This document shows positions 5 through 48,700 of a stretch of DNA of 50,699 nt, piece after piece. Position numbers and translations under genes: made by a program. The stretch is taken from sequence record PZ150740.1. One strand, given 5' to 3'. The first letter of the stretch is position 1. Every line of letters begins with the position of its first letter. The stretch comes from a phage. The notes beneath the pieces are model-generated. The model was not told the DNA's origin and ran no database searches. It was given only the letters and a program-made list of their open reading frames with translations.

Positions 5-49
5 ACTTTATCAAATGCCCTTGCGGAAGTTTTAACAAAAAGTGCTATT
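5..49 (-). promoter_or_regulatory. box promoter unit (box 29-49, -10-like TAAAGT 5-10); leader continues at window end
   Basis: Perfect box; 18-bp spacer; stop of gene 48-338 in box. Confidence 0.5.
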
Positions 50-1268: not shown

Positions 1269-1338
1269 TGTGATCTCCTCTTGATTGTTGATGTGCGCAT
1301 TATAGCGGGGCCGATAACCCCGCGTTTAGCAATTCGTG

Positions 1339-1929
1339 CTATTTAATCTGCGTGTGCTTCCATTTGACAGTATTGACGATCTCGTTTACAGCCAGTTCCG
1401 GCTTACCGTCCTGCAAGTGGAAATCATAGTGATGGATTCGATAGTGATAACCGCTCAGGTCAATGTAGTCTCTCGAATCGCCAGCAAACGTGAAGCCGTC
1501 GCGATGCAATCGGCAAATATGCACCTCATGCCCCGCCTTAACGAGCGGCTTGATTTCTTCGGGGAATCCGCCATCACTGATCACAACCGACAAATCTCGG
1601 TACATCTCGTGAATCTCTTCAACCATTCGACGCCCGAAATAGTGATCTCCAAAAACTGGCTTCATTACATCCTCGCTAATCCAGATCATGAATTGTCGAG
1701 GCGACTTGCCACCTAAGATAACTTGAGGCTTTTCTTTTTGCTCTCGGTCGTTGTATAGGCCCATAAATTCATCGTATCGAGTCGGGCCAAGCATAGAAAA
1801 AGCAATGTCGAACATAGGTTGCTTGAATGATGCCTTAACCGCTTGGTAACGATGGCCCGTTAGGTAAGCTGCAATAGTGTCCTTCCCGCAACCTGGCGGC
1901 CCATTAAGGATGATAATGTCTCGTTTCAT
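1339..1929 (-). CDS. P-loop nucleotide kinase (dNMP kinase-like)
   Basis: Walker A GPPGCGKDT at N-terminus, resembling the SGKDT P-loop of phage dNMP kinases as recalled. Confidence 0.6.
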   Translation of the reverse strand: MKRDIIILNGPPGCGKDTIAAYLTGHRYQAVKASFKQPMFDIAFSMLGPTRYDEFMGLYNDREQKEKPQVILGGKSPRQFMIWISEDVMKPVFGDHYFGRRMVEEIHEMYRDLSVVISDGGFPEEIKPLVKAGHEVHICRLHRDGFTFAGDSRDYIDLSGYHYRIHHYDFHLQDGKPELAVNEIVNTVKWKHTQIK

Positions 1930-2587: not shown

Positions 2588-2618
2588 GATTTAATCCTCG
2601 TTTGTTGTTGATGGGCTT

Positions 2619-2663
2619 ACTATACCGCAAGCCCGTTAAGATGTTTTAACAAAAAGTGCTATT
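2619..2663 (-). promoter_or_regulatory. box promoter unit (-10-like TATAGT)
   Basis: Perfect box 2643-2663; 18-bp spacer; hairpin GGGCTT/AAGCCC around -10. Confidence 0.55.
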
Positions 2664-4384: not shown

Positions 4385-4414
4385 CGCGTTTCCCCTCTCG
4401 TTGAAAGTAGGGCC

Positions 4415-4458
4415 ATTATACCTGGCCCCACATTTGAGTTTTAACAAAAAGTGCTATT
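4415..4458 (-). promoter_or_regulatory. box promoter unit (-10 TATAAT, 17-bp spacer)
   Basis: Perfect box 4438-4458; hairpin GGGCC/GGCCC around -10. Confidence 0.55.
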
Positions 4459-5405: not shown

Positions 5406-5450
5406 ATTATGCCTGGTTATCGTTTTCGAGTTTTAACAAAAAGTGCTATT
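5406..5450 (-). promoter_or_regulatory. box promoter unit (-10-like CATAAT)
   Basis: Perfect box 5430-5450; 18-bp spacer. Confidence 0.55.
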
Positions 5451-5868: not shown

Positions 5869-5913
5869 ATTATGCCAGGCTTTGCGCCTGGCGTTTTAAC
5901 AAAAAGTGCTATT
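5869..5913 (-). promoter_or_regulatory. box promoter unit (-10-like CATAAT)
   Basis: Perfect box 5893-5913; spacer is palindrome GCCAGGCgcaaaGCCTGGC. Confidence 0.55.
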
Positions 5914-7246: not shown

Positions 7247-7291
7247 AATAGCACTTTTTGTTAAAACTCAGACCACCTGATCGGGTACATT
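7247..7291 (+). promoter_or_regulatory. box promoter unit (-10-like TACATT)
   Basis: Perfect box 7247-7267; leader ACACACATCGAAACGAA. Confidence 0.55.
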
Positions 7292-8330: not shown

Positions 8331-8374
8331 ATAGCACTTTTTGTTAAAACTCAATCCTCTCATTCCTGTACATT
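8330..8374 (+). promoter_or_regulatory. box promoter unit (-10-like TACATT)
   Basis: Perfect box; leader ACACGCATCGACAACGAA. Confidence 0.55.
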
Positions 8375-8560: not shown

Positions 8561-8837
8561 GTTTTACAGCTACACCGACACAGTGGATTTTGAGGGGATA
8601 CAATTGCCCCTCCCGAATATATACCGCTATATCACTCGTGACGAACGCGGATTTATTGAAGCCTGGCGCGCGAAGCCAGTGCGGGATCTTGAATTTGGTG
8701 GCTTCCGATCCCTTGAAGGTGAATTGCCGATCTGCTTTGGTCATCAAAGCGGTAAAAACCTTCCTGTTGTTGAGCGTCAGTATCGCCGCCACAAGATTAC
8801 AAGGCAACTTATCTCTTTAACTGGAAAAGTTGTTTAA
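8550..8837 (+). CDS. hypothetical protein (start adjusted to MSSKFYS)
   Basis: ORF track frame; stop TAA inside box 8836-8856. Confidence 0.5.
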   Translation: MSSKFYSYTDTVDFEGIQLPLPNIYRYITRDERGFIEAWRAKPVRDLEFGGFRSLEGELPICFGHQSGKNLPVVERQYRRHKITRQLISLTGKVV

Positions 8838-8880
8838 TAGCACTTTTTGTTAAAAACGATGTGCGCCTGAATGGTATATT
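8836..8880 (+). promoter_or_regulatory. box promoter unit (-10-like TATATT)
   Basis: Box with 1 mismatch; leader ACATCCATCGACAACAAA. Confidence 0.55.
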
Positions 8881-10171: not shown

Positions 10172-10756
10172 GTGCGCATACAGCATGAGAATATCGAATA
10201 CGTTAACGTCTGGATTGATGAAAGATTTTACCACCGCGCGCGCTGGGAGGAATGGGGCATTCCTGACTTTATTATGGCATTTCCACCATGCACCGACCTT
10301 GCAAATAGCGGATCTCGCCATTGGGCCAAAAAACGCCTTGAGAATCCATCGTTCCAGGATGAGGCCGCCGACACTTGCAGGATCGCGGCTGATATAGCTG
10401 ATTATTTCGGTGTTCCTTACATGATCGAAAATCCGGTTGGCAAGTTGTCAACGTTATGGCGAAAGCCTGATTATACGTTCCATCCGTGCGATTACGCTGG
10501 CTATCTGCCGGAAGATGATAAACATCCCGACTTCCCTGATATTATTCCGGCGCGGGATCGCTACTTTAAGAAAACGTGCCTCTGGACTGGCAACGGCTTT
10601 GTTATTCCTCCACGCGCTTTAATCCTGCCGAAAGAGGAAGACAAAGATAATCCAGGCTGGGCCAAAACTGGCGGCAAGTCATCGCGCACAAAGATGATCC
10701 GCTCCCTCACTCCGCGCGGATTTGCTCGCGCCGTCTTTGAGTCAAACTCAAAATAG
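10172..10756 (+). CDS. cytosine-C5 methyltransferase-like protein (catalytic core; N-terminus uncertain, frame open from 10055)
   Basis: FPPC (PC-motif-like), ENP(V)G (ENV-like), PARDRYF and GNGFV motifs in C5-MTase order; no ATG for motif-I region. Confidence 0.4.
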   Translation: MRIQHENIEYVNVWIDERFYHRARWEEWGIPDFIMAFPPCTDLANSGSRHWAKKRLENPSFQDEAADTCRIAADIADYFGVPYMIENPVGKLSTLWRKPDYTFHPCDYAGYLPEDDKHPDFPDIIPARDRYFKKTCLWTGNGFVIPPRALILPKEEDKDNPGWAKTGGKSSRTKMIRSLTPRGFARAVFESNSK

Positions 10757-10796
10757 CACTTTTTGTTAAAAGCCAGGTGTAAAAACCTGGCATAAT
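10752..10796 (+). promoter_or_regulatory. box promoter unit (-10-like CATAAT)
   Basis: Box with 1 mismatch; spacer palindrome GCCAGG-tgtaaaaa-CCTGGC. Confidence 0.55.
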
Positions 10797-11211: not shown

Positions 11212-11429
11212 TAAACAGTGAAAACCGTTACAAAGTAACGCATTCTACCACAAAGACTTTCAAGCCTGGCGATATAGTCAGGCCCATCAAAAAAACGGCG
11301 GTAGGTTGGCTGATTGGTTTTTCATATCATAAGGCGCTTTACTTTACGTTTAAGGATGGGATTACAGGAGAATGCTACAGCGACCGCCAGCCTGATCGAC
11401 TTCTGGTTGCAATAGAGCGGATCAAATAG
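11208..11429 (+). CDS. hypothetical protein
   Basis: ORF track; stop TAG inside box 11425-11445. Confidence 0.45.
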   Translation: MINSENRYKVTHSTTKTFKPGDIVRPIKKTAVGWLIGFSYHKALYFTFKDGITGECYSDRQPDRLLVAIERIK

Positions 11430-11469
11430 CACTTTTTGACAAAACGGGGTAGTATTGGGCCGTTAAAAT
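11425..11469 (+). promoter_or_regulatory. box promoter unit variant (TTGACA inside box; -10-like TAAAAT)
   Basis: AATAGCACTTTTTGACAAAAC; hairpin GGGCCG/CGGCCC overlaps -10. Confidence 0.5.
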
Positions 11470-11497
11470 TTACGGCCCACAAAGGAGAAGCTAACGA

Positions 11498-13586: not shown

Positions 13587-13631
13587 AATAGCATTTTTTG
13601 TTAAAACGCCCGGCCTAGTGTCGGGTATATT
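13587..13631 (+). promoter_or_regulatory. box promoter unit (-10-like TATATT)
   Basis: Box with 1 mismatch; 40-bp near-identity to unit at 16802-16846 on the opposite strand. Confidence 0.55.
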
Positions 13632-15003: not shown

Positions 15004-15147
15004 TTTTATTCTCCATATTAATTAAAGTCAATATATTGACCGAATGATAAACTTACATGGTAAAAAATTAAACAAAAAAAGAGGCGACAAACGCCGCCCC
15101 TTTGCAAGTTTTTGATTTAATTTGTCATTGATTTAAATAAAAATTCA

Positions 15148-16801: not shown

Positions 16802-16846
16802 ATTATGCCCGACACTAGGCCGGGCGTTTTAACAAAAAATGCTATT
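16802..16846 (-). promoter_or_regulatory. box promoter unit (-10-like CATAAT)
   Basis: Box with 1 mismatch; near-identical to unit at 13587-13631. Confidence 0.55.
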
Positions 16847-17871: not shown

Positions 17872-17916
17872 ATTATGGCGCAATCCATCGCGCCAGTTTT
17901 AACAAAAAGTGCTATT
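17872..17916 (-). promoter_or_regulatory. box promoter unit upstream of Dam gene (-10-like CATAAT)
   Basis: Perfect box 17896-17916; spacer hairpin GGCGC/GCGCC. Confidence 0.55.
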
Positions 17917-20357: not shown

Positions 20358-20402
20358 ATAATAGACTCATTACAATAAACTGTTTTAACAAAAAATGCTA
20401 TG
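20358..20402 (-). promoter_or_regulatory. box promoter unit upstream of helicase (-10-like TATTAT), overlapping divergent plus-strand TATAAT
   Basis: Box with 2 mismatches; plus-strand TATAAT at 20357-20362 for gene 20413. Confidence 0.5.
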
Positions 20403-21916: not shown

Positions 21917-21981
21917 GCACTTGAAAATGCTATTATCTGCATTATCATTAGCAAAAAGTGCTATTTAGGAGGATTTTACAA

Positions 21982-27353: not shown

Positions 27354-27397
27354 TGTAGCACTTTTTGCTAAACCCAGCTTGTCGGATCGTGTATAGT
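27354..27397 (+). promoter_or_regulatory. degenerate box promoter unit (-10-like TATAGT) upstream of lipoprotein gene
   Basis: TGTAGCACTTTTTGCTAAACC (4 mismatches); leader TACAGTCAACAACAAC. Confidence 0.45.
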
Positions 27398-38122: not shown

Positions 38123-38145
38123 CTCAAGATCTCCTTATAGCACTT

Positions 38146-38190
38146 TTTGTTAAAAGTGGAATTAATTTATTTGATAGATTGATTTTACAG
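38146..38190 (+). promoter_or_regulatory. orphan box copy, antisense to tail operon
   Basis: TATAGCACTTTTTGTTAAAAG + 18 bp + TAGATT on plus strand; its complement abuts RBS of G gene. Confidence 0.4.
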
Positions 38191-38197
38191 GAATGAA

Positions 38198-38222
38198 AAA
38201 AGGGGCGCAACGCCCCTTGTTT
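38198..38222. terminator. rho-independent terminator downstream of major tail protein gene
   Basis: GGGGCG-caa-CGCCCC with flanking T/A runs. Confidence 0.6.
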
Positions 38223-38884
38223 TACTTAACGTCAGAAGGTAAGAACGTGAATCGACCTTTCAGAGATACGGAAAGGGAAACAGTTTCCATTTCGTTCATA
38301 GTGGTTTGCGGAATGTCATTAAAAGACAATACGCCAGCCCAGCAACGCATCTCTTTAGCTTTCGGCACGTACATACGCAAGGCGGTCACGTCGCCGGACT
38401 CCTCAGCCTCGCGCAAGATCGGATAAATCGGATTATCATACTCATGCGCGAAAGTATAGGTAAGAGAAACGGCGCTCTTGTAGGTCGGCAACTGCTGCTC
38501 CTGGTCATCAGCCAAACACTGATAAGTGTAATACTGTTGCTCGCCGCCGTCCTGCGCAAGATCCTGTACGCAAGGAACCTCTACCCAAGATTTCACTTCT
38601 CGGAAAGTTGCTGTGTTCTGTCCTTCTGGAAATACGTTTGTATCTTTAGTGCTAACACCCTCAAGAGTAACACTTACATTATCTGATACTTCCTTAACTC
38701 GAAGCACTCGACTAACAAGTTTGCCCCAAGAAGATGTTTCAATAAGAACATAAGCGCCTTTTTTGATGCTTTGAGTGTTTTCGGTTGTAAAAACAGGATT
38801 ATCAGCATTGCTGATTTGAGTCGCGCTAATTGGCTCACCCATATTAACGCCGATGAAAATTTGAGAACCATTAGGCAAGTGCAT
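38222..38884 (-). CDS. major tail protein
   Basis: Position upstream of G/GT; followed by attenuating terminator. Confidence 0.6.
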   Translation of the reverse strand: MHLPNGSQIFIGVNMGEPISATQISNADNPVFTTENTQSIKKGAYVLIETSSWGKLVSRVLRVKEVSDNVSVTLEGVSTKDTNVFPEGQNTATFREVKSWVEVPCVQDLAQDGGEQQYYTYQCLADDQEQQLPTYKSAVSLTYTFAHEYDNPIYPILREAEESGDVTALRMYVPKAKEMRCWAGVLSFNDIPQTTMNEMETVSLSVSLKGRFTFLPSDVK

Positions 38885-40829: not shown

Positions 40830-40872
40830 AAATAAAAAAAGGGGAACCCTTAAGGCTCCCCATGTTATCTAA

Positions 40873-41844
40873 TTACTCAGCTTTTTTCAAGCCAGTAATA
40901 AGCACCATCGTAAACGGACGATAAATAGTAAGGCCAGTACACTTGGAAGTGCAAGGAACCTTGAAATGTAGGTCTTTTGGCTGCGCCGGAAGCATGTTAA
41001 ACGCTTCTGGAATCTCAATGCTCATGTTCATTGGATCTTTTTCGTAAACCAAGCAACCTTTCGTACCTTTGCCGTCAATGTCCTCAAGCTCTGCGATAGA
41101 GTCGATAGTGATACCGCCGTTTTGCTTCTGGAAGTATTCAAGATAACTTTCAGTGGTATTTTCCATTCGAACCGTTAGGACTTTACGCATGGACGGCGGG
41201 ATCAGGATGTTGGTCGCGCGGTGCTGACCTTTGGTCACTTCCTCGATCGTTTCGATTGCAGCCTCCAGTTCATCGCTTGCTACCTGCGGGAACTTGGTAT
41301 TGCCGTCATTGCTCATCCAGCCTTTGGATGCAATTTTCGTAAGGTTAGGATGATCGAAAACTGAAACGATCTTATGAGGCTTGGAACCTTTGAACACCAG
41401 GAAGTTAATCAACTGATCATGTGCATTTTGCGCAGCGTTAGCCTTGCGAGTTGACAGGCTCTTGCCAGTTCGCTGACCTGCTTTAATCTCATCAATGGAG
41501 ATCAGATAAGCGTTACCCAGGCGGAACACTTTGCCAAACTCAGAAGTCATCAGCGCGTCCACGGTCGGCAGATCATCGGTGTAGTCGGCGATAATTTTCG
41601 CGTAGCCAACCTTATCAAAAGTCTGATACTCGAAAGTCTTATCAGTATCAGAAAGCTCGTTTGTTACAGGGAATACGCGAAGCGCGGAACCTGCCGGATA
41701 CTCTTTCTCGTATGCGGTAGAGCGGATCTTGTGTAGCTCTTGAGCGGTCCAAATACCCATATCAGAAGCGTCGGACTTAACACCCTGAATCTGCAAATGA
41801 TTCGCTACAATCGTAGCATCTAGTTCATCATATTTTTTAGCCAT
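40873..41844 (-). CDS. major capsid protein
   Basis: 323 aa, position after scaffold and paralogous head proteins; strong RBS GGAGGAA. Confidence 0.7.
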   Translation of the reverse strand: MAKKYDELDATIVANHLQIQGVKSDASDMGIWTAQELHKIRSTAYEKEYPAGSALRVFPVTNELSDTDKTFEYQTFDKVGYAKIIADYTDDLPTVDALMTSEFGKVFRLGNAYLISIDEIKAGQRTGKSLSTRKANAAQNAHDQLINFLVFKGSKPHKIVSVFDHPNLTKIASKGWMSNDGNTKFPQVASDELEAAIETIEEVTKGQHRATNILIPPSMRKVLTVRMENTTESYLEYFQKQNGGITIDSIAELEDIDGKGTKGCLVYEKDPMNMSIEIPEAFNMLPAQPKDLHFKVPCTSKCTGLTIYRPFTMVLITGLKKAE

Positions 41845-41854
41845 TTTGCTTCCT

Positions 41855-41884
41855 CCATAAAAAAGGCCGTTAAATGTAACGGCC
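41855..41884 (-). terminator. hairpin plus T-run immediately upstream of capsid gene RBS
   Basis: Minus strand GGCCGTTA-catt-TAACGGCC followed by TTTTTTAT. Confidence 0.45.
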
Positions 41885-41889
41885 TAGAT

Positions 41890-41910
41890 GATAGCACTTT
41901 TTGTTAAACG
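41890..41910 (+). promoter_or_regulatory. orphan box copy, antisense to head operon
   Basis: GATAGCACTTTTTGTTAAACG; no good -10 at fixed spacing. Confidence 0.35.
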
Positions 41911-41934
41911 CGCAATGTTTTTTTATGCTATCAG

Positions 41935-42717
41935 TTATGCGCCAGCGGTTTTCTTAAATACAATATCAAACTGGTCAGCAACTCCAGAACCATCATTAGC
42001 AGTCCAGTTGACATTAACTCTGCCTCCTACACCAGTAGGAACAACAAGACCTGTGCGGCTAACACTGGCAACCTTTGGATCTTGTGGATTTGTAATTGTC
42101 CACTGACCCGTTTTGTCATCAGCCCAAGTCGGAACAACCGTTACCTTTAATTGAACGTTATTGATCGTCTCTGTGCCCTCTATGTATCCATTTTCAGCCT
42201 CAATAATCGCACCAGTAAGAAGGTATTTTCTATGATGAAGCGGCGTTATCCTTACTCCTACTATGTTTATTGTTTCATCAAACTTGTAGAAGTCACCAGT
42301 AAAAATCCAGCCATCGACGATTTCATCGCCATCACTCTTTGCTACAAAACCATCATTGTTAACATAAACAAGATCCCCGTGCTCAGGGGGAGATTCAATT
42401 GTTTGAGTTACACACCATACAACACCTCTTGTCAAAATGTTGATGGAGTCTCCTTCCTTGTAGTCGGAATACCCGTCTTCCTCGTTAACTGTCGTTGTTA
42501 TGTTGCTCCTTAGCGCAACACCCGCAACCACAGCGTCCTCCTCTTTGTGGTCAACAAATATGTTGTAACCGCCGATTCTCTCCTTAAAGAAAACAACCTT
42601 ACCAGCAATGATCGATTCAGAACCACAAACGCCAGTACCATCAATATTGTAGCGAGTAGAATCAACCAAACAACCAGGGCAAGAAAGACCCATAACAGAT
42701 GAATAATCTTTAGCCAT
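41935..42717 (-). CDS. head-associated structural protein with C-terminal Ig-like extension (paralogue of 42768-43277)
   Basis: Shares MAK...YNIDG...GVA.RS...IN..T.G.VW.V...GFV.S.G....WIFTGD pattern with neighbouring gene. Confidence 0.5.
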   Translation of the reverse strand: MAKDYSSVMGLSCPGCLVDSTRYNIDGTGVCGSESIIAGKVVFFKERIGGYNIFVDHKEEDAVVAGVALRSNITTTVNEEDGYSDYKEGDSINILTRGVVWCVTQTIESPPEHGDLVYVNNDGFVAKSDGDEIVDGWIFTGDFYKFDETINIVGVRITPLHHRKYLLTGAIIEAENGYIEGTETINNVQLKVTVVPTWADDKTGQWTITNPQDPKVASVSRTGLVVPTGVGGRVNVNWTANDGSGVADQFDIVFKKTAGA

Positions 42718-42767
42718 TTTATTTCTCCTTACATAATAAAAAAGGCGCTCAAGCGAGCGCCTTGATT

Positions 42768-43277
42768 TTAGCTTGGGAAGACCTGAACTTCAAACAATGT
42801 AATCACATCCTGACCAGAACCGTAAGTTGTTTTATCGCCAGTAAAGATCCAGTTCGTTGTAATTGCTCCAGAACTTTTAACAAATCCTGTGGAATCATCA
42901 ATTTTCACAGGCTCGCGATATTGTGGAGTCTTTGCCTTATCGGAATCATCTACGACCATCCAAACTCTACCCTCTGTCATGACGTTGATGCCTCCACCAA
43001 CTTCATAAACCATACGACCGTTTTCTCCGGTTGTCTGGAAGTGCGATCGGATAGCCACGCCATAAGGAACGTCACCGCTTGAAGTGATGGCGTCGATAAG
43101 TTTGTTACCCATAGAATCTACGCCTTTTAATTTTACCGCCACGCCAACGGGGATAGCGATTCCATCATCCTTGTCAAGAACACAAGCGCCGTCGATGTTA
43201 TATGCCGAAGTATCGGATACCTGACCAGGAAGAGCGCGCGCCATAGTGTCAAAATAACTTGCTCCAATTTTAGCCAT
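42768..43277 (-). CDS. head-associated structural protein (paralogue of 41935-42717)
   Basis: Paralogy to adjacent gene; position between scaffold and capsid genes. Confidence 0.5.
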   Translation of the reverse strand: MAKIGASYFDTMARALPGQVSDTSAYNIDGACVLDKDDGIAIPVGVAVKLKGVDSMGNKLIDAITSSGDVPYGVAIRSHFQTTGENGRMVYEVGGGINVMTEGRVWMVVDDSDKAKTPQYREPVKIDDSTGFVKSSGAITTNWIFTGDKTTYGSGQDVITLFEVQVFPS

Positions 43278-43289
43278 TTTAATTACTCC

Positions 43290-44405
43290 TTATTTCAGTT
43301 TCTCAAAACGAGCGTTAGGATTCAGCTTAGAACCTGAGTCATCCTGCTTTTCATTCGCGAAAGAGTCACCTTTAATGCTCTTACGCTGCGCCGCCATTTT
43401 ATCAGAGTTTTTGGCAATGTCGAAAGCTGTTTCGATATAGGCATCAGTTTTATCGGAAACGTCATTTCCCATAACTTCTTTGATGTATGCAACCTTGATT
43501 GCTTTCGCATCCAGGCCGTCGCACTTGATGCCTAACTCTTTAGCGTCCGCTACTAATTGAGCATGTTGCGCGGCATCTTCTTTGGCTTTCTTGACTGCGG
43601 CATCAATCTGATCCTGAATGCCATCTACTTTGGTTTGCAGTGCGTCTCGCTCAGCTTCCAGGCCGTCCGCCTTTTCTTTCTGCGCTTTGGCATCAGCTTT
43701 CAGTGATTCAATGTGATCCGCAACTGCTTTCGGCACGTCAAACTCTACAGCGCCATCCAGTTTAATTTTTACAGTCATGATTTGATCCTCTTTGTTGTTA
43801 ATAACGTCGTCACTATACGGAAAATCTTGCTGGCTATCAAGGTTTAATTTTGCAATGCCAGCTCGACCTCGGAAAACTAACGCGATGTGGTTTACCTTGA
43901 TTTCAGTCTGGATTGCATCAAACTTAACCCAATCAGGAGAATCAGGTTTCCAGTCTTCGCTAACGTCCTCATCGAAAACGTACTCACCAGTTTTATTATT
44001 GCCCCAGCCTGGTTTATCAATATCAACCGATGTATAACCAACTGAAATTTCCGCCGTGTCTCGCTTCTTCGCGCTTTCGATTGCTCGTTTTGAGTAAATG
44101 CTTAACGGAACCTCTACGCCGATCCCGTTAGGAACACCAGCGCCAGCACAAGAACCAACCACAACCTTTTCGGCGTTTTCTGGCGTTACCGTGACGTGAC
44201 CAACCGTGACTGGCTTCCCTGCGAAGGTGGCGAGCGAGTCGGCCTTGAATACTTCGGACGCCGGACGAAATTCTCGGCGCTCACCGAAAGGAGTCTGATA
44301 GACTTGTAAACCAATTCGCGCCACGATAGGGCGATCAACTAAAAACCCGTTATCATCAAAGTGCGCCTTTACTTTGGCGCTATCAAATCTTTGTTTTGCT
44401 TTCAT
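43290..44405 (-). CDS. head scaffolding protein (possibly with N-terminal protease-like domain)
   Basis: C-terminal Ala/Lys/Asp/Glu-rich coiled-coil region; position. Confidence 0.5.
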   Translation of the reverse strand: MKAKQRFDSAKVKAHFDDNGFLVDRPIVARIGLQVYQTPFGERREFRPASEVFKADSLATFAGKPVTVGHVTVTPENAEKVVVGSCAGAGVPNGIGVEVPLSIYSKRAIESAKKRDTAEISVGYTSVDIDKPGWGNNKTGEYVFDEDVSEDWKPDSPDWVKFDAIQTEIKVNHIALVFRGRAGIAKLNLDSQQDFPYSDDVINNKEDQIMTVKIKLDGAVEFDVPKAVADHIESLKADAKAQKEKADGLEAERDALQTKVDGIQDQIDAAVKKAKEDAAQHAQLVADAKELGIKCDGLDAKAIKVAYIKEVMGNDVSDKTDAYIETAFDIAKNSDKMAAQRKSIKGDSFANEKQDDSGSKLNPNARFEKLK

Positions 44406-44415
44406 TTAATACCTC

Positions 44416-45171
44416 TTAACTATTCCAATCTGGTATAGCCCAACAACGACAACCGAAAGGCTCACCAGGAAAATCATGTTCAGAATCTAGCGCAATGCGC
44501 TTACCTTCCCATTGTACATGCTGCAATCGCTCTCTGTCATCAAGCATACCATGCCAAAAATAATGAGTTACTTTTGCATCGTAAAGACGCTGGCGCATGA
44601 GTCTACTATTCCAAGCGCCTATGATGTTTTCCGCCCTGGTCTTACCCCAAGAGCTATACACTGCGAACCTCTTACCAGCCAATTCATTGACCTGACTATC
44701 TCTCATTCCGCGAAAGTTTGCCAATCTAATATTGGTTGACCAGTCAGACACGATGTTTCCAAATAGTTTTTGAAGAGATGCGATCGTCATGTCATGCCAT
44801 TGACCGTATAGCGTCCTATACCAACTCTCATTCGCATTGGCCCCAATAGCCATAAGGATGATAACGGCGTAATTTGACTTGCCTCCCGTTGATTTCGCTA
44901 CGTTAATAAATTGCTTTGAGTTGAATTTATACACAGCAAGGCCGATAGCCGGAAGTGATGCGGCGATGCCATCTATTAGCTTTAACGCGAAGCTACTAAT
45001 CTCATCCTCTGCGGCGTTGATTTCTTCGGTGTCCGCGTCAAATTTCATTTCCTTTGTTTTGCTGCGCATCAGCACAACAAGATCCCTTATCGCCTCCTGA
45101 ATTGAGCGGCGCAATTGCCGCTCGCTTGCTTCAGGAAAGCGCCATTGTTTAACGACGCCTTTCACTATCAT
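44416..45171 (-). CDS. minor head protein (Mu F / SPP1 gp7-like head morphogenesis protein)
   Basis: C-terminal ...GEPFGCRCWAIP motif typical of this family; position after portal. Confidence 0.75.
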   Translation of the reverse strand: MIVKGVVKQWRFPEASERQLRRSIQEAIRDLVVLMRSKTKEMKFDADTEEINAAEDEISSFALKLIDGIAASLPAIGLAVYKFNSKQFINVAKSTGGKSNYAVIILMAIGANANESWYRTLYGQWHDMTIASLQKLFGNIVSDWSTNIRLANFRGMRDSQVNELAGKRFAVYSSWGKTRAENIIGAWNSRLMRQRLYDAKVTHYFWHGMLDDRERLQHVQWEGKRIALDSEHDFPGEPFGCRCWAIPDWNS

Positions 45172-46466
45172 TGATCGTTACCCTCGGTTGTTCCTGGCTC
45201 CGGCTCTACGTCCTGCTCAGGTAATTTAATGTTATTGCCGTCTTTTAGTTTAACGTTAGGCGCAATGGCTCGCAATGTGTCGCGCGCCTCCTCTGTATCC
45301 ATGAATTGACCGTCAATAGCTTTGCTCAAAGAATCAATATTCTTGTTCAAGATCTCGGCCTGGTCCTTTTCACTTGGAACGCTTAACGGCGCAAACTGAA
45401 TGCTCCATTCTTCCTCTTGAATCAGGAACGGGATCAGAAATTCAAGGATTGGTTTGTATTCCTCCTTTCTCTTTCGATCGATCAGCTTATAGAAGGTTTC
45501 AAGCGCTGTGTTCTGGCTCGCACTAACACCGCCAACGTTCTTGTTTTTGAGGATGATTTCATGGATGCCGGAAAGAGATACAATGCGATCCATCTTCTTT
45601 TCCAGGAATGAATCTACGCCGGAAATATCAGAATTTAAAACATCATATTCCTCATCTTCCGCATCAATGCCGATCGCACGGCCTACGCCACCCTCATCAT
45701 CAACTTGAGCAAGGCGCAAACGCGCGGCGTTAACACCATCATCATCATCACAAAGATCGGCAAGTCCTTTAGCTTTCCATACTGCCTGTTGCTTACGTCG
45801 CAACAATTGAGTTGCTAAGTTTTCGCAGTAGTTATAATCACAAATGGCCTCAACAAGTCGCTTATTCAGGACCGACTCACCCCACCCATCATTTGATTGA
45901 CGTCGCTGATTTGGTAGACGCTCACCGTCGATAATACAGATTCGCGAATAGTGAACCTGGTATTCTGGCAAGTCGGCACCAGGTGCAATGGTGTAAATTA
46001 ATGGCTCACCATATCGTACCTTGCGTGGATTAGTTTCTCGCTTTTCTACTCGAACCTGAAAGCGATCGTAAACGCGAACATCTTCAAGGATTGCACCAGG
46101 CGCTACAGGTGACTTTAACGCCCTGCCATCCTGAACGATTGCCACGATTGCAGCGCCACCAAAAAGACGCGACCAGCAAAGCGCATCAATGATTTTATCG
46201 TTTAGTCGCTTCTCATCCCACAAAGATCTGATACTTTCCTCATCTTCCACGCCATCAATATTAAATCCAGGCGTTACCATTTCCTCTGGAACAACGTCGA
46301 TGATTCTTTTTGCTAGGCCGTCGCGAATGTAAAAATCAGCGTGCGTGGTGTATTCGAACCCTTGCATAAAGAAAGGCAATTCCACACGCCCATTGCCCTT
46401 GCTGCCCTTGAAAATCTCGTTGTATCCATCGGCCTTAACTAGCCTTGTTTTTTCACTCATCGTCAA
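45168..46466 (-). CDS. portal protein
   Basis: Size 432 aa, position immediately downstream of terminase large subunit. Confidence 0.75.
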   Translation of the reverse strand: MTMSEKTRLVKADGYNEIFKGSKGNGRVELPFFMQGFEYTTHADFYIRDGLAKRIIDVVPEEMVTPGFNIDGVEDEESIRSLWDEKRLNDKIIDALCWSRLFGGAAIVAIVQDGRALKSPVAPGAILEDVRVYDRFQVRVEKRETNPRKVRYGEPLIYTIAPGADLPEYQVHYSRICIIDGERLPNQRRQSNDGWGESVLNKRLVEAICDYNYCENLATQLLRRKQQAVWKAKGLADLCDDDDGVNAARLRLAQVDDEGGVGRAIGIDAEDEEYDVLNSDISGVDSFLEKKMDRIVSLSGIHEIILKNKNVGGVSASQNTALETFYKLIDRKRKEEYKPILEFLIPFLIQEEEWSIQFAPLSVPSEKDQAEILNKNIDSLSKAIDGQFMDTEEARDTLRAIAPNVKLKDGNNIKLPEQDVEPEPGTTEGNDQ

Positions 46467-46530
46467 ATCTCCATAATAAAAAAGGCTGGAAAAATCCAGC
46501 CTTGATTATATAACTTTTTAGCAATTAGTG

Positions 46531-48099
46531 CTATTTATTGCGTAGACCAGCCAGCTTTTTCATCCTTGCCACCGGATCATCTGCCAAATTCATTTCGACG
46601 TTAACAGCATCAACTATATTATCGACAATATCATCATGGGGATGAGAATCATCAAAAGTGAATGCTGCAACCTCTGCCAGTATCTCAGGCAGCATGGGGT
46701 GATTTTCTGGCAGTGCCACACGTCCGGCCCTCATCACTGGCGCGGCGTCCATTGCTCGCGTTACCTTGTCATTGCTTCGCTGAACGGGATTTATATCAAT
46801 CTGGATCTTCTTTTTGGCCCCCTGAATCAAACCCGTGCCGCTGGCCTTATCCTCAATGTGGATACGTCGCAAGCTGCCACACTCCTTATTGCGCTTCCAG
46901 CACTGATTAACGAAGGCAATAAAATTTAATTCAAGATCCGGCGCTTCCCACTTTCCGCGAATGCCATCAATGAAGTAAACGCGATTCTTATACATCCCCC
47001 AATAACAAAAAACTGAATAGTCGTTAAGCTCTCCGGCCTTCTGCGCGGTATCTCCAGTAATAAATGTGTATTCAAAGCGATCCGGTTTTGGTAGTGCGCA
47101 TTTTTCGCCGCTGCCGTAATACTGGAACCACTCTGTTTTAAACACGTTCCCGCCAAGCGCGATTGGTTGCTGTTGGTATTGGCTGGCGAACGTGTAAGGA
47201 TCTGCATTGCGCAATGCAAGCAATTCCTCCGCGCTTTCCTTTGCAGGCCAAAATGAATAATGAGCAACGCCATCTATCATAACTGGCTTACTTGACAGCA
47301 CATCACGATCAAATTCAGGCTTCAACCAATCAGGAAGCGTCTCGCGGTATTCTTTCGTAACCAGCGCCGGAATGCTCACAACTTTAAACTCGATACCACC
47401 CATCCCGCCATTAAGCATAAACCAGGTGGAATCATTAACGTGTAGTCGCTGTTGCACCATAACAATCGGCGTGGTGTCTTTCATTCGACGCGATCGCACT
47501 GTGTTTTTTAACCGCATGTGGATAGCCTCACGCTTTACCTTAGAAAGCATATCATCCGGCTTGTCTGGATCGTCAAGAACCAGCATACCAGTAAAACCAT
47601 CGTCCATATAGCCGCCACGCAAACCTGTTACCTGGCCGCCAATAGAACGTGAGTTAACTTGCAATTTAACCTTGCCGCCTTCGGTGACTATCAGATCTTT
47701 AGCGCTCGCCTTTGCCAGTTTTCCTGGCCATAGCTCTTGCCACTCAGGAGAACCAATAATCTCCTTTATCCGGTTGCTGTTTTGCTGGACAAGGCCATCA
47801 CTAAACGAAAGGTTAAGGTTTCTCACTTTCCGGCTTTTCAATGACGCGTAGGGTGACATGTGGATCGAGAAAATCTCAGTCTTACCGCTACCTGGCGTAA
47901 TGTTGAAAATCACATTCTGCGACTCTCCATTGATGATCTTCTCTACCTCACTGCACAATAAGCTAAAATGCCAGTTGCTCTGGAATTTTTGCCCCTGCAA
48001 TAACTGGAACCAGATTCTGATCATCTTTTCGAATGAATGCTCACTGATTTCTTTAATGGCTCGCTTTTGCGCCGCCGTCAAATCTTCCCATATGATCAT
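46531..48099 (-). CDS. terminase large subunit
   Basis: Walker A-like NITPGSGKTE, Walker B MLVLDDPDK; size 522 aa. Confidence 0.85.
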   Translation of the reverse strand: MIIWEDLTAAQKRAIKEISEHSFEKMIRIWFQLLQGQKFQSNWHFSLLCSEVEKIINGESQNVIFNITPGSGKTEIFSIHMSPYASLKSRKVRNLNLSFSDGLVQQNSNRIKEIIGSPEWQELWPGKLAKASAKDLIVTEGGKVKLQVNSRSIGGQVTGLRGGYMDDGFTGMLVLDDPDKPDDMLSKVKREAIHMRLKNTVRSRRMKDTTPIVMVQQRLHVNDSTWFMLNGGMGGIEFKVVSIPALVTKEYRETLPDWLKPEFDRDVLSSKPVMIDGVAHYSFWPAKESAEELLALRNADPYTFASQYQQQPIALGGNVFKTEWFQYYGSGEKCALPKPDRFEYTFITGDTAQKAGELNDYSVFCYWGMYKNRVYFIDGIRGKWEAPDLELNFIAFVNQCWKRNKECGSLRRIHIEDKASGTGLIQGAKKKIQIDINPVQRSNDKVTRAMDAAPVMRAGRVALPENHPMLPEILAEVAAFTFDDSHPHDDIVDNIVDAVNVEMNLADDPVARMKKLAGLRNK

Positions 48100-48626
48100 T
48101 AAAGTTGCTCCAGAATATCAATCACAGCCTCTTTCACCTCATCGGCAGTTACTGCGTCAATGCTTGCATTAGCTGCCGCGCTCGCTTCAACGCTCACTGT
48201 TGCTGGTTTCTCTACGCCGATCTCTTTACCGATAAATCCAGCGTTAATCATGTTATTTGCCGCAAGCTGGAATTTTTGCTCGTAAATTACTTTATCAACA
48301 AACTCCATCACATCGCAGAATCCAGGCTCTTTACGCCACTTGCTTACAGCCGCCTCAGTAACTCCGAGATACAAGCTGAATCCGTTTACCGTGAAAACGC
48401 GAGGCTTGTAAACTCTGCTCTCGTACACGTCACCCTGAAAGGAAGCAGTTTCAGCCGCCTGAATGTGATTCTCTTCGGCCCAAGTGAAATAGCGGATCGC
48501 CATATCAAAAACCTGTTCCGGCGTGTACTTGTGGCGGTTATTTAGCGTGACAATATCGCCATAAGTTTTATTGTATAACTCTTTGAAATTTAATGCCTTT
48601 ACAGCAGGCTCAACGTTTTTAGCCAT
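48099..48626 (-). CDS. terminase small subunit (putative; start adjusted to MAKNVEP)
   Basis: Position upstream of and overlapping terL (ATGA); RBS AAGGAGGA. Confidence 0.5.
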   Translation of the reverse strand: MAKNVEPAVKALNFKELYNKTYGDIVTLNNRHKYTPEQVFDMAIRYFTWAEENHIQAAETASFQGDVYESRVYKPRVFTVNGFSLYLGVTEAAVSKWRKEPGFCDVMEFVDKVIYEQKFQLAANNMINAGFIGKEIGVEKPATVSVEASAAANASIDAVTADEVKEAVIDILEQL

Positions 48627-48669
48627 TGTTAATCCTCCTTTGGTTAGATGCCTGATTATACCAAACAAC

Positions 48670-48700
48670 GGGCAATAAAAAACCCGCCGTGCGGCGGGTC
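48670..48700 (-). terminator. rho-independent terminator upstream of terminase promoter
   Basis: CCCGCC-gtgc-GGCGGG hairpin followed by TTTTTTATTG on minus strand; then TGGTATAAT extended -10. Confidence 0.5.

What the first reader, a model, noticed from the sequence alone, without database searches (positions are those of the whole stretch)
41855..46510. Terminator-like hairpins placed immediately before the RBS of capsid and portal genes
On the minus strand, GGCCGTTAcattTAACGGCC plus TTTTTTAT directly precedes the capsid RBS (41855-41884), and GGCTGGAtttttCCAGCC plus TTTTTTATTATGGAG precedes the portal start (about 46470-46500). Hairpin-U-run elements inside a late operon suggest partial termination or transcript processing and stabilisation that tunes structural protein ratios.
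Basis: partly seen in the sequence, partly recalled or inferred. Interest (0 to 1): 0.35.

Follow-up and report, generated by a model that had tools for sequence, protein, structure and literature searches.

The report
Terminator hairpins fused to phage promoters
The two hairpins before the capsid and portal genes of this T1-like coliphage are real and conserved, and each probably ends transcription from upstream while a promoter directly against it restarts transcription for the next gene, a layout already described in T4-like phages.

Summary
The window is a complete T1-like coliphage genome (Drexlerviridae, about 95% identical to phage atuna). They are stable (-13.5 and -15.3 kcal/mol, z -4.6 and -5.8), lie in intergenic DNA on the coding strand, and are kept by compensatory changes in relatives. 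Their counterparts are already listed as predicted rho-independent terminators in phage T1 (portal) and phage TLS (T30, T35).

For the capsid gene it is TTGCGC-16-TGcTATCAT with an upstream A-tract. For the portal gene it is TATAAT, 5 nt after a copy of the family's 19-nt repeat. E. coli polymerase starts 6-9 nt after a -10, so it would start inside the 5' arm. The new transcript would then lack the terminator hairpin, while transcripts from upstream would contain it.

Two neighbouring junctions have the same layout. Ten of 16 repeat-type promoters elsewhere in the genome also carry a GC-rich hairpin. This matches the composite promoter/stem-loop cassettes (PeSLs) of T4-like phages.

No transcript ends were measured, so function is inferred. 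Verdict: a new member of a known kind, of modest interest.

The parts
41918..41924 (-). A7 tract just upstream of the capsid -35, in the position of an UP element
   Evidence: Read. AAAA(A) is invariant at this position in 32 aligned relatives.
41910..41915 (-). Capsid promoter -35 hexamer TTGCGC
   Evidence: TTG is invariant in 32 relatives; variants are TTGCAC, TTGAAC, TTGACG and TTGACC, always 16 nt from the -10.
41891..41909 (+). Copy of the family's 19-nt direct repeat (ATAGCACTTTTTGTTAAAC), inverted relative to the capsid gene. It forms the promoter spacer and the start of the -10.
   Evidence: 1 mismatch. The same inverted repeat lies next to terminator T35 in TLS (DR7).
41888..41893 (-). 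Capsid promoter -10 hexamer TATCAT, preceded by TGc (extended -10, 41896-41894)
   Evidence: TATnnT and the TGC before it are invariant in 32 relatives.
41864..41885 (-). Capsid-proximal hairpin: 9-bp stem, 4-nt loop
   Evidence: -13.5 kcal/mol, z -4.64. Compensatory changes CG<->UA and GC<->AU.
41880..41880 (-). Predicted capsid transcription start (G, 8th nt after the -10, preceded by C), inside the 5' arm
   Evidence: Inference from the TSS rule in PMC5730371. This G and the next T are invariant in 32 relatives, and CGTTA is also kept in the Klebsiella-phage clade that has no hairpin.
41859..41864 (-). T-run (6 T) after the capsid hairpin. It runs into AT-GGAGG (Shine-Dalgarno 41856-41852).
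   Evidence: Variable in relatives, 0-6 T of 8.
40873..41844 (-). Major capsid protein gene
46516..46534 (-). Direct repeat copy (ATAGCACTAATTGCTAAAA) in gene orientation, overlapping the TerL stop codon (TAG 46533-46531), 5 nt upstream of the portal -10
   Evidence: Present in most T1-clade relatives.
46505..46510 (-). Portal -10 hexamer TATAAT. No good -35 at 16-18 nt (TAGCAC at 17 nt).
   Evidence: TAnAAT is invariant in 26 relatives. The Klebsiella-phage clade has TTGAAA-17-CATAAT at the same place.
46482..46503 (-). Portal-proximal hairpin: 9-bp stem, 4-nt loop
   Evidence: -15.3 kcal/mol, z -5.77. AU<->GC covariation. T1 has a different stem, GGGCTGTC/GACGGCCC.
46497..46497 (-). Predicted portal transcription start (G, 8th nt after the -10, preceded by T), inside the 5' arm
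   Evidence: Inference applied.
46478..46483 (-). T-run (6 T) after the portal hairpin, followed by ATTAT-GGAG (Shine-Dalgarno 46472-46469)
   Evidence: Conserved: 4-7 T of 8 in all 26 relatives.
45168..46460 (-). Portal protein gene
42742..42793 (-). Sister cassette before the scaffold-like gene: TTGAAG-17-TAAAAT, 1 nt, hairpin 42763-42742, T-run
   Evidence: (-16.0 kcal/mol, z -5.06). The promoter part is conserved in only some relatives.
40841..40890 (-). Sister cassette after the capsid gene: TTGAAA-17-TAACAT, 0 nt, hairpin 40861-40841, 7 T
   Evidence: TTGnnn-17-TAnnAT with a 0-2 nt gap and 6-8 T was found in 32 of 34 distinct relatives.

Best explanation
Each hairpin is the stem-loop half of a composite promoter/terminator cassette. 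The proposed mechanism has three steps.

1. RNA polymerase arriving from upstream (the terminase genes for the portal element, the scaffold-like gene for the capsid element) transcribes the whole inverted repeat. The 9-bp GC-based hairpin forms directly against six U, and part or most of the polymerases terminate just before the next ribosome-binding site.

2. A host sigma-70 promoter whose -10 hexamer ends 1-2 nt before the stem starts new transcripts 6-9 nt downstream, which is inside the 5' arm. These transcripts lack the GC base of the stem, cannot form the terminator and read on into the gene. The U-run becomes the U-rich leader in front of the Shine-Dalgarno sequence.

3. The late head region is thereby cut into short units. 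The capsid gene unit runs from its own strong-looking promoter to the strongest terminator, at 40861-40841. Promoter strength and terminator leakiness would then set the structural mRNA ratios.

Shown here: the sequence anatomy, hairpin stability, conservation and covariation, and the adjacency of -10 and stem. Inferred: promoter activity, the start-site position and actual termination.
For: - Hairpin stability: -13.5 and -15.3 kcal/mol, z -4.6 and -5.8.
- Orientation and place: minus-strand-only terminator pattern, in intergenic gaps.
- Capsid promoter: in 32 distinct relatives the TTG of the -35, the 16-nt spacer, TGC, TATnnT and an upstream A-run are invariant. The stem starts 0-3 nt after the -10.
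- Portal promoter: TAnAAT is invariant in 26 relatives and the stem starts 0-1 nt after it.
- Covariation: compensatory pairs CG<->UA 14/9 and GC<->AU 15/9 for capsid, and AU<->GC 16/6 for portal. RNAalifold finds 4 of 8 pairs with double changes.
- Start-site rule: E. coli polymerase starts at positions 6-9 after the -10 (8, 55, 29 and 7%) and rarely outside that range (PMC5730371). All four positions lie inside the 5' arms. The residual structure is -5.1 to 0 kcal/mol and no longer touches the U-run.
- The G at the predicted capsid start is invariant and is preceded by a pyrimidine. CGTTA is kept even in the Klebsiella-phage clade, which has no hairpin there.
- That clade instead places a terminator with a T-run about 20 nt upstream of the same promoter. 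The pairing of a terminator with a capsid promoter is therefore conserved while their order differs.
- The same layout occurs at 42793-42742 and 40890-40841, the latter in 32 of 34 distinct relatives.
- Within the window, 3 of 13 minus-strand hairpin+T-run elements have a TT-type -35 plus a -10 ending 0-5 nt before the stem. The positional base rate is 1.8%, giving a binomial P of about 2e-3 (my calculation).
[quoted passage not shown] They were shown to act as promoter and as terminator in lacZ fusions (PMC2839356).
- The homologous portal hairpin is annotated as a terminator in T1, and TLS lists T30 and T35.
Against: - No transcript 5' or 3' ends exist for any T1-like phage in the literature I could search. 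Promoter activity, start site and termination are all inferred.
- The portal promoter has a perfect -10 but no acceptable -35 and no TGn in the window. It may be weak or need a factor bound to the adjacent repeat.
- The capsid T-run is degenerate in many relatives (0-4 T of 8; one has CCCCAAAAAGG), and four relatives have weak stems of -4 to -6 kcal/mol.
- In the Klebsiella-phage clade the portal and scaffold hairpins keep their place next to a -10-like hexamer but have no T-run at all. The conserved feature is therefore the hairpin, not intrinsic termination.
- The GC-rich stem occupies the discriminator and start region, which should destabilise open complexes.
- Polymerases from upstream still cross the promoter before terminating, so promoter occlusion is not avoided.
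Confidence: 0.55

Rival explanations
1. Plain internal attenuators. The late genes form one long operon. The hairpin-U-run elements terminate a fraction of polymerases at each junction, so downstream genes get progressively less mRNA. The -10-like hexamers are not functional promoters.
For: - The terminator anatomy is canonical.
- Some late junctions (before the tape-measure gene at 37489-37472, and after 34410) have a hairpin and T-run but no promoter-like hexamers.
- The portal -35 is poor.
- AT-rich sequence before a terminator can resemble a -10 by chance: the base rate is 11-12% per site for a loose -10.
Against: - A pure attenuation cascade would give the capsid gene, the most needed product, less mRNA than the terminase and portal genes upstream of it.
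- The invariance of exactly T1, A2 and T6 of the hexamers, with free middle positions, is a -10 signature rather than an A-tract signature.
- For the capsid gene, the TTG at 16 nt, the TGn and the A-tract are also conserved across 32 relatives, and across the Klebsiella-phage clade where no hairpin follows.
Confidence: 0.15
2. RNA-stability elements. The hairpins mainly protect RNA ends rather than terminate. One version is a 3' block to exonucleases for the upstream mRNA after cleavage or Rho-dependent termination. The other is a 5' cap-like hairpin on the downstream mRNA after RNase E cleavage of a read-through transcript.
For: - In Klebsiella-phage relatives the equivalent portal and scaffold hairpins (GTGGGCC..GGCCCAC, and GCGGCC-UUCG-GGCCGC) are conserved without any T-run.
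- The capsid T-run is not conserved.
- The AU-rich single-stranded tail after each hairpin resembles an RNase E target (my knowledge, not tested).
Against: - In the window and throughout the T1 clade the portal, scaffold and post-capsid hairpins keep 4-8 T of 8 directly after the stem. A pure stability element does not need that.
- A 5'-protecting role for the promoter-derived mRNA is excluded if the start lies 6-9 nt after the -10.
- The stems are too short (9 bp) for RNase III.
- This reading is compatible with the best explanation rather than exclusive of it.
Confidence: 0.15
3. Leader attenuator under antitermination control. Transcription starts upstream of the hairpin, the hairpin terminates the gene's own transcript, and a phage factor relieves this late in infection, as with lambda Q at PR'-tR'.
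For: Promoter, then terminator, then gene is the order seen on the DNA. The 19-nt repeat next to both promoters could bind a phage factor.
Against: - The stem begins 1-2 nt after the -10, so a sigma-70 start cannot lie upstream of it.
- The TLS authors report no RNA polymerase or sigma-factor gene, but that is not a search for antiterminators. I did not scan the proteome for one.
- The Klebsiella-phage capsid promoter has no hairpin after it.
Confidence: 0.05
4. DNA-level role. The inverted repeats act as DNA: protein operators over the start site, cruciforms that help or hinder promoter opening, or recombination hot spots that shuffle gene modules, as proposed for PeSLs.
For: - Inverted repeats overlap promoter cores at many other sites. 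Ten of 16 repeat-type promoters have a hairpin of -9 kcal/mol or stronger in the spacer or around the -10, against 9 of 320 shuffles.
- PeSLs were shown to recombine (PMC2839356).
Against: - Every hairpin in the genome has a different stem sequence, so they cannot share one sequence-specific binding protein.
- G-U wobble pairs are tolerated (T-G in TLS-like portal stems), which points to RNA pairing rather than DNA pairing.
- The strand-specific T-run has no DNA-level rationale.
Confidence: 0.05

Closest known systems
Predicted rho-independent terminators of phage T1 (RefSeq NC_005833 feature 10545-10573) and phage TLS (T30, T35; PMC11447400 Table S1), part of the 'transcripton' picture of the T1 late region
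   Same: They are homologous elements at the same gene junctions. The T1 TerL-portal hairpin GGGCTGTC..GACGGCCC+TTTTT and TLS T30 ggctggaatattccggcc+ttttt match the portal element. TLS T35 gccgttattatgacggc sits next to inverted repeat DR7 before the capsid gene.
   Different: - Those annotations list terminators, promoters and the 21-nt repeat separately. They do not note that the -10 abuts the stem or that the start should fall inside it.
- The T1 record has no terminator feature before its capsid gene, although the same promoter-hairpin-T-run is present there.
- All of these are in silico predictions, as here.
PeSLs (promoter-early stem-loops), composite promoter/terminator cassettes of T4-like phages RB49, phi1, PST and nt-1 (PMC2839356, PMC4122927)
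   Same: - A sigma-70-type promoter with an AT-rich upstream region.
- A stable GC stem-loop placed between or over the promoter boxes or just after the -10, before the start.
- A Shine-Dalgarno sequence and start codon at the 3' end.
- The stem-loop is read as a terminator or attenuator for upstream transcription.
- The motif is repeated through the genome.

All these classes of stem position are seen in this window.
   Different: - A different phage family (siphovirus, Drexlerviridae) with no sequence relation tested.
- The two elements studied here sit between conserved late head genes, not between early ORFans in hyperplastic regions.
- They carry a clear T-run.
- The repeated part is a 19-nt upstream element at a fixed 18-19 nt from the -10, not a consensus -35.
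- Activity and recombination were not tested here.
'Widespread coupling of promoters and terminators of transcription in bacteria' (bioRxiv 10.64898/2026.08.19.745784)
   Same: The title and the start of the abstract say that promoters and terminators of adjacent units are extensively coupled genome-wide, and the text contains the phrase 'overlapping the terminator'.
   Different: I could not open the paper. I do not know whether the geometry (a -10 abutting the stem, a start inside the stem) or any phage is covered.
Capsid-gene units bounded by their own promoter and a strong terminator in other coliphages (T7 gene 10 between promoter phi10 and terminator T-phi; f1/M13 gene VIII before the central terminator). 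Recalled from my own knowledge.
   Same: The most abundant structural protein gets a short, separately bounded, highly expressed mRNA.
   Different: T7 uses its own polymerase and RNase III sites. In neither case is the promoter fused to the preceding terminator in the way seen here.

Membership tests
Intrinsic (rho-independent) terminator | GC-rich stem of about 5-14 bp with a 3-8 nt loop | tested here: met
   9-bp stems (5 G-C pairs each) with 4-nt loops; -13.5 and -15.3 kcal/mol.
Intrinsic (rho-independent) terminator | U-run directly 3' of the stem | tested here: met
   Six T directly follow each stem in the window.
Intrinsic (rho-independent) terminator | Sense-strand, intergenic position after a stop codon | tested here: met
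   Capsid hairpin starts 50 nt after the stop at 41935. Portal hairpin starts 27 nt after the TerL stop at 46531. The pattern is on the minus strand only.
Intrinsic (rho-independent) terminator | Stem and U-run both conserved in relatives | tested here: inconclusive
   Portal: stem and 4-7 T of 8 kept in 26 T1-clade sequences, but no T-run in Klebsiella-phage relatives. Capsid: stem kept with covariation, but the T-run ranges from 0 to 6 of 8.
Intrinsic (rho-independent) terminator | RNA 3' ends at the U-run, factor-independent in vitro | not testable with these tools
   No Term-seq or in vitro data for T1-like phages were found.
PeSL-type composite promoter/terminator cassette | Sigma-70-type -35 and -10 boxes with an AT-rich upstream region | tested here: inconclusive
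   Capsid: met (A7, TTGCGC, 16 nt, TGcTATCAT; conserved). Portal: perfect TATAAT but no acceptable -35; a 19-nt repeat lies there instead.
PeSL-type composite promoter/terminator cassette | Stable stem-loop within or directly beside the promoter boxes | tested here: met
   The stem starts 2 nt (capsid) and 1 nt (portal) after the -10. The gap is 0-3 nt in all 58 relatives' sequences. [quoted passage not shown]
PeSL-type composite promoter/terminator cassette | Shine-Dalgarno sequence and start codon at the 3' end of the cassette | tested here: met
   GGAGG lies 7 nt and GGAG 8 nt before the ATG, directly after the T-run.
PeSL-type composite promoter/terminator cassette | Conserved motif repeated at many intergenic sites of the genome | tested here: met
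   The 19-nt repeat has 20 copies against 0.22 expected. Sixteen or 17 of them have a -10-like hexamer 18-19 nt downstream. Ten of 16 carry a hairpin inside the promoter.
PeSL-type composite promoter/terminator cassette | Measured promoter and terminator activity; recombination between cassettes | not testable with these tools
   Needs reporter fusions and PCR for mini-circles, as in PMC2839356.
5'-terminal stabilising stem-loop (ompA type) | Hairpin begins within a few nt of the mRNA 5' end | tested here: not met
   In silico only. Starts at positions 6-9 after the -10 fall 3-8 nt inside the 5' arm, leaving -5.1 to 0 kcal/mol of structure.
RNase III processing site (T7 type) | Roughly two helical turns (about 20 bp) of duplex | tested here: not met
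   Only 9 bp. The length requirement is from my own knowledge.
Lambda-type leader terminator with antitermination | Terminator lies downstream of the start in the regulated transcript, and an antiterminator gene is present | tested here: not met
   First part not met by the start-site rule. Second part not tested.
Rfam RNA families | Match above the gathering score | tested here: not met
   Only sub-threshold terminator-like matches. The capsid leader hit Trp_leader at 24.9 bits against a threshold of 41.

The most novel reading that the evidence does not exclude
The cassette works as a terminate-and-restart device, not as two independent signals. A polymerase that releases its RNA at the U-run stays on the DNA about 20 bp from the embedded -10. 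It re-initiates there, so polymerase flux is passed on while every gene gets a fresh, hairpin-free 5' end. A factor bound to the adjacent 19-nt repeat would decide when this hand-over happens. The repeat lies at three different registers: about -41 at early promoters, over the -35 at the portal gene, and over the spacer and -10 at the capsid gene. This would give the early/late timing that no known T1 regulator explains.
Probability: 0.1. Interest if true: 0.6.

Novelty: new member of a known kind. Interest (0 to 1): 0.35.

Why it matters
T1-like phages (Drexlerviridae) are among the most commonly isolated coliphages and Klebsiella phages, and they are used in therapy collections. Their transcription programme has never been mapped, and the TLS authors left the 19-21-nt repeat unexplained.

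Reading the late 'terminators' as halves of promoter/terminator cassettes gives a concrete, testable transcript map. It predicts short units and a monocistronic capsid mRNA running from about 41880 to about 40835. It also predicts that the gene's own mRNA escapes the terminator because it starts inside the stem.

This extends the PeSL idea from T4-like myoviruses to an unrelated siphovirus family, and from early ORFan regions to core structural genes. It also yields compact natural parts, about 60 bp holding terminator, promoter and ribosome-binding site, that may be useful for engineering.

Tried and rejected
- Portal promoter as an inverted repeat copy. I first aligned the portal upstream region to the capsid one as a degenerate inverted repeat. 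The relaxed search showed it is a forward copy overlapping the TerL stop, so the resemblance was partly chance.
- Antisense promoter from the inverted repeat at the capsid gene. There is no -10-like hexamer at the family's fixed +18/19 distance, only TATGCT at +14. Rejected.
- Shared protein operator. Every hairpin has a different stem sequence. Rejected.
- 5' stabiliser for the gene's own mRNA. Incompatible with the start-site rule.
- RNase III site. The stems are too short.
- Conservation of the portal TATAAT as a mere pairing partner of the downstream ATTAT. Relatives that have TTATTGGAGG and no ATTAT still keep TATAAT. Rejected.
- Rfam. Nothing above threshold.
- Literature searches for start-site or Term-seq data on T1-like or Webervirus phages found none. 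One search was RNA-seq of a T5-like phage.
- The T1 genome paper and the Rtp paper are not held.
- The 2026 preprint on promoter-terminator coupling could be found but not opened.
- I did not scan the whole proteome for antiterminators or DNA-binding proteins.

Full report
**What the window is.** The 50,699-bp window is a circularly permuted complete genome of a T1-like coliphage. Its head-gene region is 95-96% identical to Escherichia phages Poky, atuna and tonnikala (Drexlerviridae, Tempevirinae, Warwickvirus). The late genes run on the minus strand:
- small terminase, 48626-48099
- large terminase, 48099-46531
- portal, 46460-45168
- head morphogenesis, 45171-44416
- a 371-aa head protein, 44405-43290
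- HtjA, 43277-42768
- a 260-aa scaffold-like protein, 42717-41935
- major capsid protein, 41844-40873

Neck and tail genes follow.

The capsid element is AGGCCGTTA-catt-TAACGGCCT at 41885-41864. Six T follow at 41864-41859, then AT, GGAGG (41856-41852) and the ATG at 41844.

The portal element is AAGGCTGGA-tttt-TCCAGCCTT at 46503-46482. Six T follow at 46483-46478, then ATTAT, GGAG (46472-46469) and the ATG at 46460.

As RNA they fold at -13.5 and -15.3 kcal/mol, with z-scores of -4.64 and -5.77 against dinucleotide shuffles. The consensus scan lists them as terminator-like on the minus strand only. No Rfam family reaches its threshold here.

Reading upstream on the minus strand, the capsid hairpin is preceded by AAAAAAA (41924-41918), TTGCGC (41915-41910), a 16-nt spacer, and TGc-TATCAT (-10 at 41893-41888). 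Only two bases separate that -10 from the stem. The portal hairpin is preceded by TATAAT (46510-46505) and one base.

I fetched 79 related loci through the capsid protein, ranging from 54% to 99% identity. I then located each junction by tblastn.

In 32 distinct capsid-upstream sequences of the T1 clade, the following are invariant: the A-run, the TTG of the -35, most of the spacer, TGC, and T1, A2, T3 and T6 of the -10. The -35 varies only among TTGCAC, TTGAAC, TTGACG and TTGACC.

In 26 distinct portal-upstream sequences, TAnAAT is invariant (TATAAT, TACAAT or TAAAAT). Phage T1 itself has TTGACG-16-TGcTATTAT-tga-AGCCGTGA..TCACGGTT-TTTTT before its capsid gene, and TATAAT-t-AGGGCTGTC..GACGGCCCT-TTTT before its portal gene.

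The capsid promoter is well supported by this pattern. The portal one has a perfect -10 but no usable -35, so it is less certain.

**The hairpins are selected as structures.** Anchoring each sequence on its own fold, the capsid stem shows CG<->UA (14 v 9 sequences) and GC<->AU (15 v 9) at two positions. At those two positions 24 of 25 and 24 of 24 pairs are canonical. The portal stem shows AU<->GC (16 v 6). RNAalifold on an independent MAFFT alignment recovers the capsid hairpin, with double-sided changes at 4 of 8 pairs.

The T-run behaves differently at the two sites. After the portal stem there are 4-7 T in the next 8 nt in every T1-clade relative. After the capsid stem there are 0-6, and one phage has CCCCAAAAAGGAG.

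**Where transcription should start.** For E. coli sigma-70 holoenzyme the start lies 6, 7, 8 or 9 bp after the -10 in 8, 55, 29 and 7% of cases, and rarely outside that range. Polymerase prefers a purine start preceded by a pyrimidine (PMC5730371).

The stems begin 0-3 nt after the -10 in all 58 sequences. Every allowed start therefore lies inside the 5' arm. In the window the best candidates are G41880 (preceded by C) and G46497 (preceded by T).

The capsid G and the next T are invariant across the clade. CGTTA at the same distance from the -10 is kept even in the Klebsiella-phage clade, which has no hairpin there.

A transcript that begins at positions 6-9 keeps only -5.1 to 0 kcal/mol of structure. 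That residual stem no longer abuts the U-run. A transcript coming from upstream forms the full -13 to -15 kcal/mol hairpin. This is the core of the proposed mechanism: the same 60 bp stops incoming transcripts and launches a new one that is blind to the terminator.

**The layout is general in this phage.**
- The junction before the scaffold-like gene reads TTGAAG-17-TAAAAT-c-hairpin (42763-42742)-T-run.
- The junction after the capsid gene reads TTGAAA-17-TAACAT-hairpin (40861-40841)-T7.
- The post-capsid version (TTGnnn-17-TAnnAT, gap 0-2 nt, 6-8 T) was found in 32 of 34 distinct relatives, even though its -35 lies in the capsid coding sequence.
- Within the window, 3 of 13 minus-strand hairpin+T-run elements have a TT-type -35 plus a -10 ending 0-5 nt before the GC core. 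The positional base rate is 1.8%, so P is about 2e-3 by my binomial calculation.
- Other late junctions are different. The small terminase and tape-measure chaperone genes have a terminator followed by a separate promoter region. The tape-measure gene has a terminator with no promoter.

**The Klebsiella-phage clade as a natural control.** Relatives with about 55% capsid identity are Klebsiella Webervirus-like phages. Before their capsid gene they have a strong terminator (GGGGCTTCGGCCCC-TTTTT). About 20 nt later comes the same kind of promoter (TTGACC/G-16-TGnTATTCT), and no hairpin follows. A terminator paired with a capsid promoter is therefore conserved, but the order differs. That is what one expects if the T1-clade hairpin is the terminator of the upstream unit moved into an overlapping position.

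The same clade also argues against a purely terminator reading. It keeps hairpins next to -10-like hexamers before its portal gene (TTGAAA-17-CATAAT-g-TGGGCC..GGCCCA) and its scaffold gene, and these have no T-run at all. The hairpin may therefore also, or originally, serve to protect RNA ends.

**The 19-nt repeat.** The capsid promoter's spacer and the start of its -10 are an inverted copy of ATAGCACTTTTTGTTAAA(A/C). A forward copy ends 5 nt before the portal -10. This is the 21-nt direct repeat reported for TLS, T1 and Rtp, which the TLS authors left unexplained (stoperator, enhancer or UP-like; PMC11447400).

The window has 20 copies against 0.22 expected. In 16-17 of them a -10-like hexamer starts exactly 18-19 nt after the repeat. 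A conserved leader, a Shine-Dalgarno sequence and an ATG follow. The repeat is therefore a fixed upstream promoter element centred near -41. Its TTGTTA is 22 nt from the -10, too far to act as an ordinary -35.

Ten of 16 such promoters carry a GC-rich hairpin of -9 kcal/mol or stronger, against 9 of 320 shuffles. In six the hairpin fills the gap between repeat and -10. In four it brackets the -10 in its loop.

**Comparison with what is known.** The homologous hairpins are already annotated as predicted rho-independent terminators. These are the T1 feature at 10545-10573 for the portal junction, and TLS T30 and T35. T1 has no such feature before its capsid gene. The T1 late region has been described as 'transcriptons' flanked by terminators and containing RpoD promoters.

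The interleaving of promoter boxes and stem-loops matches the PeSLs of T4-like phages RB49 and phi1. There, five subclasses are defined by stem position. [quoted passage not shown] A Shine-Dalgarno sequence and start codon sit at the 3' end. The stem-loop is read as a terminator or attenuator for upstream transcription, and both promoter and terminator activities were shown in lacZ fusions (PMC2839356; PMC4122927).

[quoted passage not shown] I found no transcript-end data for any T1-like phage.

**Verdict.** They are intrinsic-terminator-like hairpins that others have already predicted in this family.

The interpretation needs one substantial change. They are not internal signals of a single operon, nor 5' stabilisers. 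They are halves of composite promoter/terminator cassettes that cut the head region into separately started units. I put 0.55 on that mechanism. The capsid promoter is the best-supported part. The portal promoter and actual termination efficiency are the least supported.

It is a new member of a known kind (PeSL-like cassettes in Drexlerviridae). It has modest interest and is directly testable by 5'- and 3'-end mapping.

Noticed in passing
window, 20 sites: 30-48(-), 1324-1342(-), 2644-2662(-), 4439-4457(-), 5431-5449(-), 5894-5912(-), 7248-7266(+), 8331-8349(+), 8837-8855(+), 10753-10771(+), 11426-11444(+), 13588-13606(+), 16827-16845(-), 17897-17915(-), 20383-20401(-), 21946-21964(-), 27355-27373(+), 38137-38155(+), 41891-41909(+), 46516-46534(-): The 19-nt repeat ATAGCACnnnTTGnTAAAA has 20 copies against 0.22 expected. 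In 16-17 copies a -10-like hexamer starts exactly 18-19 nt after it, followed by a conserved leader (CATCGAAACGA or CATCAACAA), a Shine-Dalgarno sequence and an ATG. It therefore looks like a fixed upstream promoter element centred near -41, in an activator or UP-element position, and not a normal -35. The TLS paper reported the repeat but left its role open.
   Followed up: partly
window: 1305-1323(-), 5874-5892(-), 10772-10791(+), 13608-13626(+), 16807-16825(-), 17876-17895(-); and around the -10 at 2613-2634(-), 4407-4431(-), 11456-11479(+) and one that runs across the window ends (50699-50692 joined to 22-1, minus strand): Ten of 16 repeat-type promoters contain a GC-rich hairpin (-10 to -16 kcal/mol). 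It either fills the 19-nt gap between repeat and -10 or brackets the -10 in its loop. Only 9 of 320 shuffles reach -9 kcal/mol. None of these hairpins has a T-run. The stem positions are the same as in the PeSLs of T4-like phages.
   Followed up: partly
window 38137-38229 (+ strand): The repeat copy at 38137-38155 is inverted relative to the tail genes. On the + strand it is followed at the family's +19 distance by TAGATT (38175-38180), and then by the bidirectional hairpin 38200-38218 with GTTTT. This could make an antisense RNA of about 40 nt between the major tail and chaperone genes. Rfam gives a sub-threshold sRNA-like hit there (STnc50, 33.8 bits against 55, E 0.018).
   Followed up: no
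window 42742-42770 (-): The HtjA stop codon (42770-42768) lies only 4 nt before the hairpin at 42763-42742. A ribosome sitting on the stop codon would cover the 5' arm, so termination there could depend on translation of the upstream gene.
   Followed up: no
L160 (phage T1, NC_005833) 15049-15140: The T1 reference record annotates terminators before the portal gene, before gp48 and after the capsid gene, but none before the capsid gene. The same promoter-hairpin-T-run (TTGACG-16-TGcTATTAT-tga-AGCCGTGA..TCACGGTT-TTTTTATT) is nevertheless present there.
   Followed up: yes
loci L119-L159 (Klebsiella Webervirus-like phages), upstream of the portal and scaffold genes: Conserved hairpins (GTGGGCC..GGCCCAC, and GCGGCC-TTCG-GGCCGC with a UUCG-type loop) sit directly after -10-like hexamers but have no T-run. 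In this clade the hairpin cannot be a canonical intrinsic terminator.
   Followed up: partly
window 48640-48700 (-): Before the small terminase gene the order is the conventional one. The terminator at 48700-48681 with TTTTTT comes first, then an extended -10 promoter-like TGGTATAAT, then AAGGAGG and the ATG at 48626.
   Followed up: no
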